From assembly GCA_963575745.1 (NCBI GenBank), contig CAUYUJ010000126.1, forward strand, positions 620,001 to 667,781: a DNA stretch of 47,781 nt. The letters are read 5' to 3'. Below, piece after piece: positions 28,101 through 31,100 of this stretch; the first letter of the stretch is position 1, and every line of letters starts with the position of its first letter. The stretch is from Prorocentrum cordatum. Lineage: Eukaryota. Made by a program: the position numbers and the translations under genes. A model generated the notes under the pieces. It made no database searches. It worked only from the letters and a program-made list of their open reading frames with translations, and had not been told where the DNA came from.

Positions 28101-31100
28101 GATTGAAGTTGTAGTCTGTCGGCGTGTCTGGGGGTCCAAAGTCGCCGCCGTACGCGAACACCTGCGTGCCGTTGATGATAGTGAGTATCCCCTGGTCAAC
28201 CCAGTCCCAGATGAACCCACCTTGCACAACACCATAGGAGTTTATGGCGTCCCAGTACTCCTTGAAACCTCCGAGAGAATTTCCCATCGCATGCGCATAC
28301 TCGCACATGATCAGCGGAAGAGCGCTGGTATCATTCTCGTACAGCTCGCCATACTTGCGCAGCTTCTCCTGGCTCGGGTACATGGGAACGTAAATGTCAG
28401 TGTTGTGATCGATGGCTTCGAGGTTATCCGTGCTCCATCCCGGTTCGATTCGTGCGTTCTCATACTGCACGGGCCGTGTAGGATCTCTCTGTTTAGTCCA
28501 GTTGTACGTCAAGTGAAAATTCATGCCATTGCCCGCCTCGTTTCCAAGCGACCAGATAATGATCGACGGGTGGTTTTTATCTCGTTCGACCATTCGCTGC
28601 ATCCTTGCCATGTGCGCGAGGGTCCACTCAGACTTACCTGCTAGCGTTTCGTTTTGCAAGAAGCCCATGCCATGGCTCTCAATGTTCGCCTCGTCCACCA
28701 CGTACAGTCCGAACTCGTCACAGAGTTCGTACCAGAGCGGGTCGTTCGGGTAGTGCGCATTCCGCACGGCGTTCATGTTGTTCTCCTTCATGAGCCGAAT
28801 GTCCTCCTTCATCAGCTCCGGAGAGATCACATGGCCGGTGTGCATGTCGTGCTCGTGGCGATTGACCCCAGCGACCCTGAGGATGGCCCCGTTCACCCAC
28901 AGGCGGCCGCCGCGGACCTCGACGCTGCGAAAGCCGACCCCGAAGCGCAGGGCCTCCGCTGTGGCATTGCCCACGGCCAGCGTGACCAGCAGAGTGTAGA
29001 TGTACTCGGAGGCGGCCGTGGGATCTGAGCTGCACGGGCCCCGAGGAAATCGGTCGGGACGGGGGGAGGAGGAGGAGGAGGAGGAGGAGGAGGAGGAGGA
29101 GGGAGGAGGAGGAGGAGGAGGAGGAGGAGAGAGGAGGAGGAGGAGGAGGAGGAGGAGGAGGAGGAGGGGGGAGGAGCAGGGGGGAGGGCGAATCCGCTTA
29201 AGATCGGTGCCCGGACACCTCCTGCGGTCCATCTGGCGCAATGATTCACCCCGGATTCGTTCCTCATCGAAAACGGCCCCTGGAGGCCGAAAGAGACAAA
29301 ACGTCTTCTCGAGTCCAGCACCTCGAACCTCGCCCCCCCCCCCCCCCTTCCTGCTTGCCAGAGCCAGTGCTGGACCGCCTCGGGCCTTGGAGGCCTCCCC
29401 AGACTAGATGGGGTCCGAGTAGATGGGGCCGGAGGATCGCGCTGCATAGCCAATGCATCGCCGACGCATCGGCGCCATCGGCGCGGAGAAACGCTGGCTC
29501 CACATCGAGCTGCATCGCCGATGCATCGGCGATCAATGGGAAGCACATGGACATACTAGTACTGCATGTCCTCCTTGGAGGCGCGTGTCCGACCCGAACA
29601 GATAGTATACCCATCTGGTAGTATATCGTTTTCCGAGCGGCGTGGCCAGAAAGCGCCCGCCACGACGCATGTACTACAAGATTTCTCGGTGCGTGCGTCG
29701 CCCCTGGGGGGGCGACGCACATGCAATATAGAAGTATGTTGGGGTGACGCCGAATCCACGTGATCCTCCGATCCCGTCCACTCGGACCCCAACCGGGAGG
29801 CCTGGAGCGCCCCAGCCGGCTCCAAGGAGGTACGGTCTCTCCGCGCTCCACGGCCTGGCGCCGTCGACGCGCGCCCTGGCCGTGTACCTCGCCGACACTC
29901 CTGGGGAGCAGAGAGACAAACACGCTCATGAGAAGCTCCCCGACGAGCGACGCCGCTTGTGAGCGTTTTGTTTTTCGGCGTTTCGACATTGGGGGCGGGA
30001 GGGGAGGAGGGGGTCTGGCTCCGGACCTCTGCGTAGTGCGACTGTTTGCAGCAGTGCGTCCTATGGGGAGACGCCAGCTGCTCGAAACAGGCGCCCAAAA
30101 CAGCCAAAACTACTATATCCCATGGGAGGGGGAAGGGGGGGGCGAGGGCCCGCGCCGATCGGCGAAAAACGAAGAAGAAAACGATCCCCATTCAGTAAAC
30201 GCACCCAAGGGGGGGGAATCGAACAGGACAAGGCTGCTCAGTGTAAACGCCCATGAGCAGCTTAGCAGACGCCAGAGCCCAAAAGTGTTCTAAGACCTGT
30301 TCTGACTTAGAACATAATAAGCCCGATGTGTTGAAACAAGACGGCCTCAGCCAGAAATGTTCTGAGAACAAGCCGTGCAGACCACACAAGAGGTGCTTAG
30401 AACATCCTTTTGTGGGCCCAAAAGGCGAGCCAGGGCGCTCCGCCACCGCTTGACATCGGGGTGGTCGGGGTGACTTCTCTAGGGGGAAAACAAACCTACC
30501 TCGCTTTGGACCACCATCGCTTCCAAGAGATACCAAACTACGGCCTGTACTGGCCAGGCCGCTTGACGAGGAGGCGCGTGGTATGACTTGGTTTTGCCTG
30601 GAAGCGAAAGCGGGGTAGGTAATTCACGCTCCGATTCTCCCTCCCCTAAGACCTCCGCCGCTGCCCTGGCCGACCGCCCGCACCTCCAGCGGCAGCACGG
30701 CTCCGCCGCCGGCCGCGGGGGCCCTGCCGGGCCGGGCGTCCACGAGCTCGCAGGCGAGCGCCAGAGGGCCCGGGGGGCCGCCGTCCTCGATGTTCTGGCC
30801 GGGCAGCAAACGACGACACGAGCAGGACCGTTCGGAGGTCCGCGCGGACTTCTCGGATCGGCGCCGGGGGGGCCCCCCGGCGGCGCCTCCAGCGCCACCC
30901 CTGGCGCGCCCCGCGCGCCAGGGGTGGGGGTTCAGCGCCGATCCAAGGAATCCGCGCAAACTTCCAAAATATGAATTATGTTTCTGTCATGTTTTGCTCC
31001 CCGATCAAGTCCATCGCGACGTCGAGGTCACCCTCGGCCGTGGCGCGGATCTGGACGTCTCGTACGTGGCTCCGAGGTCTTTCCGGCGGCGCGCAGGAGG

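What the first reader, a model, noticed from the sequence alone, without database searches (positions are those of the whole stretch)
29005..29832. Non-canonical intron 10 (TA..AG or GT..GA): third case of a one-G deficit
Seen: WSAERP|YIYTL needs CCG|TACCTC...CCGAG|TACATC, with GTAC repeated. As in introns 4 and 7, splicing at the G-N donor and the AG would give mRNA short by exactly one G. Three parallel cases in non-homopolymer context argue against sequencing error. Inference: either donor identity is relaxed when the exon ends in G and the ends pair, or the 3' cut is at A|G, or a G is restored. A canonical alternative (GT to TGCAG at ~29029) would add SDPTAASE in a conserved motif.
Basis: partly seen in the sequence, partly recalled or inferred. 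Interest (0 to 1): 0.8.

Follow-up and report, generated by a model that had tools for sequence, protein, structure and literature searches.

The report
Hairpin-ended non-canonical dinoflagellate intron

Summary
The gene is a minus-strand LacZ-like GH2 beta-galactosidase of a GC-rich dinoflagellate with long introns. Spliced RNA contigs from three studies remove exactly 828 nt between 28998 and 29827 (register free by 2 nt). The canonical GT..AG alternative with the SDPTAASE insert is not seen. On the coding strand the removed piece starts CT, CC or TC and ends TC, AT or CA, so it has no GT/GC/GA and no AG. It is therefore non-canonical, but at face value it is not a one-G case.

The intron looks like a transposon: 12-nt inverted ends (10 of 12 matching, CT...AG), flanked by TACCTC and TACATC. 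Its ends pair in the MFE and centroid folds.

The one-G pattern is real elsewhere. Introns 4 and 7, and also 8, read G|NN..AG or GN..NA|G in the RNA. All four non-canonical introns have paired ends. The six GT/GC..AG|G introns examined pair less.

The closest known systems are the Amoebophrya non-canonical introner elements. I rate this a new variant of a known kind.

The parts
27753..28998 (-). It encodes the GH2 TIM-barrel and LacZ domain 4 and starts with YTLLVTL.
   Evidence: RNA contigs lie on 27753-28998 with 0-1 other letters (table 8). Pfam PF02836 E 1e-97 and PF16353 E 6.9e-10.
28999..29826 (-). Intron 10 as removed in RNA: 828 nt. The register may be 28999-29826, 29000-29827 or 29001-29828. 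Coding-strand ends are CT..TC, CC..AT or TC..CA.
   Evidence: Joint 28998 to 29827, skips 828, 2 nt fit either side, in X1, X2 and X6. Shift variants are listed.
29827..29899 (-). Exon 10, encoding ..[25 protein letters not shown].
   Evidence: Contig pieces 29827-29899/29902 (table 8). Translation.
29827..29833 (-). Upstream copy of the direct repeat, GTACCTC (TACCTC is the putative target-site duplication). It is kept in the mRNA.
   Evidence: The mRNA contains CCGTACCTC.
28999..29005 (-). Downstream copy of the direct repeat, GTACATC (one mismatch, at 29001). It is removed with the intron.
29815..29826 (-). 5' terminal inverted repeat, CTTGGAGCCGGC.
   Evidence: 10 of 12 matches to the reverse complement of 29005-29016. 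Chance is about 5e-5 for one register and 0.002 for 49 registers. It is paired in the duplex, MFE and centroid folds.
29005..29016 (-).
29054..29187 (-). (TCC)n microsatellite inside the intron, read as (GGA)n on the plus strand.
   Evidence: read laying skipped 29054-29187 as a repeat.
29612..29787 (-). Multi-copy element inside intron 10. RNA depth in X6 is 97, against 9.5 for the gene's exons.
   Evidence: tables 2 and 3 (7 contigs at 29694 in X6).
29030..29031 (-). It is not used in the contigs.
   Evidence: No such joint appears.
32194..32599 (-). Intron 4, 406 nt, one-G type: G|CG..AG or GC..GA|G. It has a 6-nt identical boundary repeat TCGAGC and paired ends.
   Evidence: Joint in X1, X2 and X6 plus 1 read of X23. 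Variants. Pairing z -3.4.
31079..31554 (-). Intron 7, 476 nt, one-G type: G|AC..AG or GA..AA|G. Its boundary repeat is AGAC, and a 12-bp perfect stem lies near the ends.
   Evidence: Joint in X1, X2 and X6..
30795..31005 (-). Intron 8, 211 nt, one-G type: G|AT..AG or GA..CA|G. The whole intron is a foldback hairpin.
   Evidence: Joint in X6 only.. Fold energy -131.3 kcal/mol. Pairing z -4.2.
29901..30652 (-). Intron 9, canonical GT..AG|G.
   Evidence: Joint in X6 only..
31726..31952 (-). Intron 6, canonical GT..AG|G.
   Evidence: Joint in X1, X2 and X6..
32051..32115 (-). Intron 5, 65 nt, GC..AG|G, with an 8-nt identical boundary repeat TCGAGGCC.
   Evidence: Joint in X1, X2 and X6 plus 2 reads of X23..

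Best explanation
Intron 10 is a genuine intron derived from a transposable element (an introner-like element). An element of about 822 nt carries imperfect 12-nt terminal inverted repeats (CT...AG) and sits between two copies of a 6-nt target-site-like repeat, TACCTC and TACATC. In the pre-mRNA the inverted ends pair and close the intron into a hairpin, which brings the two repeat copies side by side. The element and the downstream repeat copy are then removed exactly (828 nt), restoring [11 protein letters not shown]. Shown here: the removal, its length, its register to within 2 nt, the absence of GT/GC/GA at the 5' end and of AG at the 3' end, the inverted and direct repeats, and the link between non-canonical ends and end-pairing within this gene. 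Inferred: that the window's own copy is the one transcribed, and that excision is done by a dinoflagellate spliceosome whose need for terminal dinucleotides is relaxed when a terminal stem juxtaposes the ends. A relaxed or adapted spliceosome has been proposed for Amoebophrya and Fritillaria. The AG that ends the inverted repeat (29005) is base-paired in the stem and is not the cut site.
For: RNA: 3 of 3 contig runs join 28998 to 29827 with 0 mismatches, and depth at both borders equals exon-only coverage, so there is no retention. No register has GH..AG. The retained copy encodes Leu, which 114 of 119 homologues carry before the Tyr. None carries Ile, and 119 of 120 have the motif W..E.P..Y uninterrupted. 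The inverted repeat matches at 10 of 12 positions. The terminal stem (+1..+7 with -7..-13, then +9..+17) is found by duplex folding and closes the intron in both the MFE and the centroid of the 848-nt fold, z -4.74 against 20 shuffles. Within the gene, the 4 non-GH..AG introns have end-pairing z of -2.9, -4.2, -2.6 and -3.4. The 6 GT/GC..AG|G introns have -1.7, -1.1, -1.2, +0.65, +0.6 and -1.5. That is complete separation, which by my own arithmetic has a chance of 1 in 210. Part of the intron is multi-copy in RNA. Introns 4 and 8 share end motifs and a core 75% identical over 132 nt. Retaining the intron would stop translation at 29674. Literature passages read: IR+DR introner elements with non-canonical ends in Amoebophrya (PMC7789003); introner elements enriched in P. 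cordatum introns (PMC10666404); CT..AG elements with target-site duplications in Symbiodinium (bioRxiv 10.1101/2020.10.14.339549, parts 1-2 of 4).
Against: No DNA run of the same strain was laid. The evidence comes from assembled contigs, which drop minor isoforms, and the one raw-read run had 0 reads on this joint. All six other RNA-mapped introns of the gene can be read with an AG at the 3' end, and CCTCCGAG resembles the acceptor of intron 6, so this intron is the odd one out. Against an empirical null of 1500 random pseudo-introns from the window, the end-pairing of intron 10 alone is unremarkable (fraction 0.11). The values for introns 8, 7 and 4 are 0.058, 0.004 and 0.025. No second copy of the intron's termini exists in the window, and no genome is available. 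The spliceosomal mechanism is an inference. Nothing here shows a lariat or a branch point.
Confidence: 0.45

Rival explanations
1. The reader's junction is right (G|TA..AG, equivalently GT..GA|G), making this a fourth one-G intron. The RNA contigs come from a near-identical sister copy or allele, or the assembly is wrong, with C rather than A at 29001. The aligner then slid the joint 6 nt to avoid the mismatch.
For: The two mRNA models differ at a single base. This reading gives intron 10 the same G|NN..AG form as introns 4, 7 and 8 and uses an AG in a CCTCCGAG context like intron 6's CCTCCCGAG. It also matches the Symbiodinium introner signature of a repeated tetramer (GTAC) with CT at +5/+6 (bioRxiv 10.1101/2020.10.14.339549, part 1). 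Dinoflagellate genes are often multi-copy (PMC5032977, passages).
Against: It needs a difference at exactly one of a few bases, while about 2.2 kb of exon in the X6 contig shows 0 other letters. It would leave the window's copy with Ile where 0 of 119 homologues have Ile. In this reading the AG lies inside the terminal stem, whereas in introns 4, 7 and 8 the AG lies 5 nt outside it.
Confidence: 0.2
2. The junction and transposon origin are as in the best explanation, but excision is not spliceosomal. A hairpin-recognising endonuclease and ligase pathway, as discussed for euglenid nonconventional introns, cuts at a set distance from the stem.
For: No G at +1 and no AG at -1 in any register. In all four non-canonical introns a register exists in which the 3' cut is 5 nt past the last stem pair (G-6 in introns 4, 7 and 8; G-7 in register a of intron 10, which is -6 in register b). 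Euglenid nonconventional introns have TIR pairing, TSD-like repeats and circular products (PMC11282704, passages).
Against: Three of the four non-canonical introns do have an AG in an allowed register. By my estimate the chance of that is about 0.02 if the ends were arbitrary. The euglenid motif positions (+4..+6 and -8..-6, CAG/CTG) and the pyrimidine|purine junctions are not seen. The 5' distance from the stem varies from 0 to 3 nt. The sample is four introns.
Confidence: 0.15
3. The window's copy is a gene copy disrupted by transposons and is not correctly processed. The RNA comes from a paralogue or allele without the inserts (empty sites), so no unusual splicing exists.
For: Removing an element plus one target-site copy reproduces an empty site exactly. 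Introns 4 and 10 have clear flanking repeats.
Against: The exons are identical to the RNA over about 2.2 kb despite four inserts. Intron 8 shares its inverted ends with intron 4, yet it has only a 2-nt boundary repeat and extra unpaired bases on both sides, so it is not a pristine insert relative to the mRNA. No unspliced contigs cross the borders.
Confidence: 0.1
4. The joint is an artefact of reverse transcriptase template switching across a stable hairpin flanked by direct repeats.
For: A hairpin with direct repeats is the classic setting for such artefacts (recalled, no paper read here).
Against: The joint is the only form present in 3 independent studies. Coverage stops exactly at both borders. 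The product restores a motif conserved in 119 of 120 homologues. Fragmented-RNA libraries would still show exon-intron reads.
Confidence: 0.04
5. Canonical GT (29833) to AG (29030) splicing occurs, giving [19 protein letters not shown].
For: It is in frame and has a GT..AG pair.
Against: It is absent from all 3 spliced contigs. It would interrupt W..E.P..Y, which is contiguous in 119 of 120 homologues.
Confidence: 0.02

Closest known systems
Amoebophrya non-canonical introns / introner elements (Farhat et al. 2021, PMC7789003; passages read)
   Same: RNA-supported introns without GT..AG. Short direct repeats overlap the exon/intron borders. Inverted repeats near both ends can form a hairpin that joins the exon ends. 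The character is transposon-like (MITE-like).
   Different: Those are in a small-genome parasitic syndinean, with introns of 40-1000 nt analysed, and U1 snRNA not detected. Here the gene spans about 35 kb with kb-long introns. Its nearest named relatives are Effrenium and Polarella, i.e. core dinoflagellates. The direct repeat is 6 nt (5 of 6 matching) rather than 3-5 nt, and the inverted repeat is imperfect. snRNAs could not be examined.
Introner-like elements of Symbiodinium/Polarella (Roy et al., bioRxiv 10.1101/2020.10.14.339549, parts 1-2 read) and introner elements reported in P. cordatum introns (PMC10666404, passages)
   Same: An element starting CT and ending AG, with inverted ends, flanked by a target-site duplication. 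Removal of the element plus one duplication copy. Intron 4 resembles their class 12 (5-nt TSD, element starting with C).
   Different: All described classes are spliced at GT/GC/GA..AG, recruited from the TSD or the element. Those annotations allowed only such sites. Here the TSD does not start with G. The RNA-supported cuts have neither GH nor AG (intron 10) or are off by one G (introns 4, 7, 8).
Identical repeated intron boundary (IRIB) of dinoflagellate introns (Mendez et al. 2015, PMC5032977; passages read)
   Same: 2-9 nt at the 3' end of the exon recur at the 3' end of the intron and appear once in the mRNA. All 7 RNA-mapped introns here show this (2-8 nt).
   Different: IRIBs are described as always containing GG (AG|G), with the cut between the Gs. 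Introns 4, 7, 8 and 10 lack the GG.
Euglenid nonconventional introns (review PMC11282704; passages read)
   Same: Non-canonical borders, end pairing, TSD-like repeats and a suspected MITE origin.
   Different: A different lineage. The characteristic CAG/CTG pairing at +4..+6 and -8..-6 and the Y|R junctions are not present. Circular products are untested.

Membership tests
Dinoflagellate spliceosomal intron of GT/GC/GA..AG|G type | Intron begins with G followed by T, C or A | tested here: not met
   In the three RNA-compatible registers the intron begins CT, CC or TC.
Dinoflagellate spliceosomal intron of GT/GC/GA..AG|G type | Intron ends with AG and the next exon starts with G | tested here: not met
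   The ends are TC, AT or CA, and the next exon base is T, C or T. The nearby AG (29006-29005) lies 4-6 nt inside the removed piece.
IRIB introns (Mendez 2015) | An identical 2-9 nt repeat at the exon 3' end and the intron 3' end, present once in the mRNA | tested here: met
   2 nt (TC) are identical, and 6 of 7 match for GTACCTC/GTACATC.
IRIB introns (Mendez 2015) | The repeat contains GG (AG|G), with the cut between the Gs | tested here: not met
   There is no GG in the repeat.
Introner elements (IR+DR definition of Farhat 2021, also used by Dougan 2023) | Inverted repeats of 8-20 nt within 30 nt of both intron ends | tested here: inconclusive
   A 12-nt inverted repeat sits at the very ends, but only 10 of 12 positions match. 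The RNA duplex has 18 pairs, and the stem is present in the MFE and the centroid. A perfect repeat of 8 nt or more is not present.
Introner elements (IR+DR definition of Farhat 2021, also used by Dougan 2023) | Direct repeats of 3-5 nt overlapping the borders | tested here: met
   TACCTC/TACATC directly flank the inverted repeats (5 of 6 matching, with perfect runs TAC and TC).
Introner elements (transposon family) | Many similar copies in the genome | not testable with these tools
   No genome is held. The window has no second copy of the termini. Positions 29612-29787 are multi-copy in RNA contigs. Introns 4 and 8 share a core at 75% over 132 nt.
Amoebophrya-type non-canonical introns | A non-GT..AG junction validated by RNA | tested here: met
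   3 contigs from 3 studies.
Amoebophrya-type non-canonical introns | A spliceosome lacking detectable U1 snRNA | not testable with these tools
   No genome is held. Rfam found nothing in the window.
Euglenid nonconventional introns | Pairing of +4..+6 with -8..-6 (CAG/CTG) and pyrimidine|purine junctions | tested here: not met
   The stem starts at +1/-7 with CUUGGAG/CUCCGAG. The junctions are C|C, T|C or C|T at the 5' end.
U12-type (AT-AC) introns | 5' consensus RTATCCTY (from PMC5032977, passages) | tested here: not met
   The 5' region reads GTACCTCCTT. No register gives AT..AC.
GH2 beta-galactosidase (the host gene) | GH2 TIM-barrel domain and LacZ domain 4 | tested here: met
   PF02836 E 1e-97 and PF16353 E 6.9e-10 on exon 11. 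Full-length homologues 50-68% identical.

The most novel reading that the evidence does not exclude
Core, large-genome dinoflagellates have a second mode of intron removal. It is guided by the terminal hairpin of transposon-derived introns rather than by GT/GC/GA..AG. It cuts a few nucleotides outside the stem (about 5 nt on the 3' side) and can rescue insertions at targets that offer no splice dinucleotides. The one-G introns would be its borderline cases. Annotations restricted to GH..AG would then miss or mis-model a sizeable share of introns (here 4 of the 7 with RNA evidence).
Probability: 0.25. Interest if true: 0.85.

Novelty: new variant of a known kind. Interest (0 to 1): 0.6.

Why it matters
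Published dinoflagellate gene models allow only GT/GC/GA..AG (methods passages in PMC10666404 and PMC12584245). If this is typical, many genes in such genomes are mis-annotated. It would also extend the Amoebophrya-type, hairpin-associated non-canonical introns to free-living dinoflagellates. The imperfect boundary repeat of intron 10 is useful in its own right. In ordinary dinoflagellate introns the identical boundary repeat hides the true cut site. Here a single mismatch shows which copy stays in the mRNA, and it places the cut away from the AG.

Tried and rejected
1. The whole-genome search for other copies and snRNAs failed because no genome is held for this window.
2. Earlier findings were not open.
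3. The Rfam scan of the window gave 0 matches at gathering score.
4. I looked for the species' own transcript-derived protein across the junction. The best hit was 68% identical among the longer proteins and 72% identical over 69% of the query among those of near length, so neither gave independent protein-level evidence.
5. An exact 35-nt exon-11 pattern found 0 matches in metagenome or metatranscriptome contigs. The second scan that is allowed was not used, because the protein searches already showed the species is absent there.
6. BLAST of whole introns against the window was swamped by microsatellites. The run limited to intron ends found no second copy of the intron 10 termini.
7. Nested (twintron) splicing is rejected. 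The outermost removed base must still be a donor G, and none of the three registers starts with G.
8. On the plus strand the joint reads GA..AG|G. I treat this as chance, because the same contig carries sense-strand GT..AG joints.
9. The raw-read run X23 had no read on the intron 10 joint.
10. Downstream introns (below 27753) were not modelled, apart from one inferred by homology at 4504-4195. Without RNA the registers cannot be trusted.
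Full report
**What is there**

The finding lies in a minus-strand gene for a LacZ-like GH2 beta-galactosidase.
- The large exon at 27753-28998 matches PF02836 (E 1e-97) and PF16353.
- In one search all 8000 scored candidates had E <= 0.001, and the best 120 were listed. They are full-length beta-galactosidases 50-68% identical. The top hits are protist transcriptome records. Named hits include Effrenium voratum (63%) and Polarella glacialis (56%).
- tblastn with three of these proteins maps exons from about 38979 down to about 4070.
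- The gene therefore spans about 35 kb, with long introns rich in microsatellites. GC is 0.46-0.66 per 2 kb.
- This is the look of a large-genome dinoflagellate. I did not determine the species.

**Checking the observation**

CCG is followed by TACCTCC at 29832. CCTCCGAG ends at 29005 and is followed by TACATC. GTAC stands at both ends. Joining CCG to TACATC needs TA..AG or GT..GA. The GT..AG alternative at 29030 is in frame and adds SDPTAASE.

**RNA evidence**

Exon 11 is held by many public runs. I laid four runs from four studies on 27500-32750. Only X1 and X23 are on record as RNA. X2 and X6 behave as RNA, because their contigs skip the introns.
- X1, X2 and X6 each have one contig that joins 28998 to 29827. 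It skips 828 nt, has 0 other letters, and has 62-76 nt on the shorter side. Two letters fit either side.
- X23 (raw reads) has no read on this joint.
- Depth in the two border bins equals what the exon parts alone would give, so no retention is visible.
- The mRNA reads CCG TAC CTC|TAC ACT, which is [11 protein letters not shown].
- The SDPTAASE form is not seen.
That base is 29001: A in the genome's downstream repeat, C in the RNA.
- Among the 120 listed homologues, 119 have W..E.P..Y uninterrupted. The residue before Y is Leu in 114, Thr in 2, Met in 2 and Arg in 1. None has Ile. The remaining protein, P0024, is shorter and lacks the region.
- The RNA-supported junction therefore gives the conserved Leu.

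**The ends**

In the three registers the RNA allows, the coding-strand intron is CT..TC, CC..AT or TC..CA. None has GT, GC or GA at the 5' end or AG at the 3' end. The next exon base is not G.

The same contigs define six more introns.
- Intron 9 is GT..AG|G (X6 only).
- Intron 6 is GT..AG|G (3 runs).
- Intron 5 is GC..AG|G, 65 nt, with an 8-nt boundary repeat (3 runs plus 2 reads).
- Intron 4 is G|CG..AG or GC..GA|G (3 runs plus 1 read).
- Intron 7 is G|AC..AG or GA..AA|G (3 runs).
- Intron 8 is G|AT..AG or GA..CA|G (X6 only).

A G-N donor and an AG are both present, but the mRNA keeps one G that GN..AG splicing would remove.

Three more introns, inferred only by homology, have clean GC..AG|G solutions: 38851-35382, 35290-32669 and 4504-4195.

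**Anatomy of intron 10**

- The removed piece begins CTTGGAGCCGGC. Six bases before its end it reads GCCGCCTCCGAG. These are inverted repeats matching at 10 of 12 positions. The chance is about 5e-5 for one register and 0.002 if 49 registers are allowed.
- Directly outside them lie TACCTC (upstream, kept) and TACATC (downstream, removed).
- The layout is: direct repeat, inverted repeat, about 800 nt, inverted repeat, direct repeat. That is the layout of a non-autonomous DNA transposon with a target-site duplication.
- The ends pair from +1:-7 inward. This stem closes the intron in both the MFE and the centroid of the 848-nt fold (z -4.74, 0 of 20 shuffles as stable).
- Positions 29612-29787 are multi-copy in RNA, with depth 97 against 9.5 for the exons in X6.
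- Leaving the intron in would stop translation at 29674.

**A pattern across the gene**

I folded the first and last 30 nt of each intron together, with 10 nt of exon on each side, and compared the result with 300 shuffles.

| Introns | z-scores |
|---|---|
| Non-GH..AG: 10, 8, 7, 4 | -2.9, -4.2, -2.6, -3.4 |
| GT/GC..AG\|G: six examined | -1.7, -1.1, -1.2, +0.65, +0.6, -1.5 |

- The separation is complete. By my own arithmetic this has a chance of 1 in 210.
- A harsher null uses 1500 random pseudo-introns from this repeat-rich window. It gives 0.11, 0.058, 0.004 and 0.025 for the four non-canonical introns, and 0.06, 0.57 and 0.85 for introns 9, 6 and 5. Intron 10 alone is therefore not remarkable on that test, and intron 9 also pairs fairly well.
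- Intron 8 is a 211-nt foldback (-131.3 kcal/mol). It shares end motifs with intron 4, and a core 75% identical over 132 nt in inverted orientation.

**How it most likely works**

I read intron 10 as an introner-like insertion at a target that offers no G-H dinucleotide at the start of the duplication.
- The RNA shows that the cell removes the element and the downstream repeat copy exactly.
- The single mismatch between the repeat copies places both cuts 4-6 nt downstream of where a GN..AG rule would put them.
- I think the most likely agent is a spliceosome that tolerates non-standard terminal nucleotides when a terminal stem holds the ends together (0.45).
- A non-spliceosomal pathway that measures from the hairpin is the bolder alternative (0.15).
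- Nothing here shows a lariat or a branch point.

**Rivals**

It would make intron 10 a fourth one-G intron with an acceptor context like that of intron 6. It needs a difference at just this base while about 2.2 kb of exon shows none, and it gives an Ile that no homologue has.
- RNA from a copy without the inserts (0.1). This fits poorly with intron 8, whose borders are not those of a pristine insertion.
- A reverse-transcriptase artefact (0.04). Three studies and clean coverage borders argue against it.
- The canonical SDPTAASE form (0.02). The contigs contradict it as the main form.

**Comparison with what is known**

- Boundary repeats (IRIB) are a described dinoflagellate feature, but they are described with AG|G at both sites (PMC5032977, passages).
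- Introner-like elements with CT..AG ends and target-site duplications are described for Symbiodinium and Polarella, always with GT/GC/GA..AG sites (bioRxiv 10.1101/2020.10.14.339549, parts 1-2 of 4).
- Introns with inverted repeats at both ends are reported as enriched in P. cordatum, under gene models restricted to such sites (PMC10666404, passages).
- RNA-validated introns with arbitrary ends, direct repeats and hairpins are described for Amoebophrya (PMC7789003, passages). Reviews list 'other boundaries' essentially only there (PMC11453091 and PMC11282704, passages).
- My searches found no report of such junctions, or of the one-G form, in core dinoflagellates. The library lacks most subscription papers, and I did not read any supplements.

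**Verdict**

- The intron is real and non-canonical.
- The one-G phenomenon itself is real in three neighbouring introns.
- All four odd introns are hairpin-ended and transposon-like.
- I file this as a new variant of a known kind, with interest 0.6.

Noticed in passing
window 30795-31005, 31079-31554, 32194-32599, 28999-29826: In all four non-canonical introns a register exists in which the 3' cut lies exactly 5 nt past the last pair of the terminal stem. The overhangs are TCGAG, GAAAG and GCCAG in introns 4, 7 and 8, and TACAT in intron 10. The 5' distance from the stem varies from 0 to 3 nt. The sample is too small to call this a rule.
   Followed up: partly
window 30480-30631: A very high-copy transcribed repeat lies inside the canonical intron 9. 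RNA depth reaches about 4200 in X6 and 490 in X2, against about 10 for the gene's exons. Many contigs diverge at 30631, which marks an element border (tables 2 and 7).
   Followed up: no
window 30827-30957 and 32338-32466: Introns 8 and 4 contain the same foldback core (75% over 132 nt, inverted orientation), and both begin their inverted ends with CGGGG(G)AG. Contigs in the RNA runs link the two places through other copies.
   Followed up: partly
window 29830-29833 and 29002-29005: The repeated GTAC is itself a palindrome. In the centroid fold the upstream GUA pairs with the downstream UAC just outside the main stem. This leaves CCUC as a 4-nt bulge at the 5' junction.
   Followed up: no
window 28999-29826, plus strand: Read on the plus (antisense) strand, the RNA joint has the dinoflagellate-like form GA..AG followed by G. 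I judge this to be chance, because the same contig carries sense-strand GT..AG joints.
   Followed up: partly
window 33810-33909: A run of 100 N (an assembly gap) lies inside the 2.6-kb intron upstream of the exon at 32668, flanked by (GGA)n-type microsatellites.
   Followed up: no
window 28092: The raw-read run X23 (a different organism label) reads T instead of G in 4 of 4 reads. The contigs of the other three runs match the window (table 3). This is a strain or copy difference within exon 11.
   Followed up: no
window 27753: RNA contigs leave exon 11 at ...GCGGAGA|TCGGG. The downstream partner exon lies outside the stretch laid, so the type of this donor (possibly GA) is open.
   Followed up: no
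window 4434-4619 and 4070-4195: tblastn aligned the same part of the homologue's C-terminal region (residues 1133-1151 of P0001) to both of these exons. A GC..AG|G intron (4504-4195) between them resolves the overlap.
   Followed up: partly
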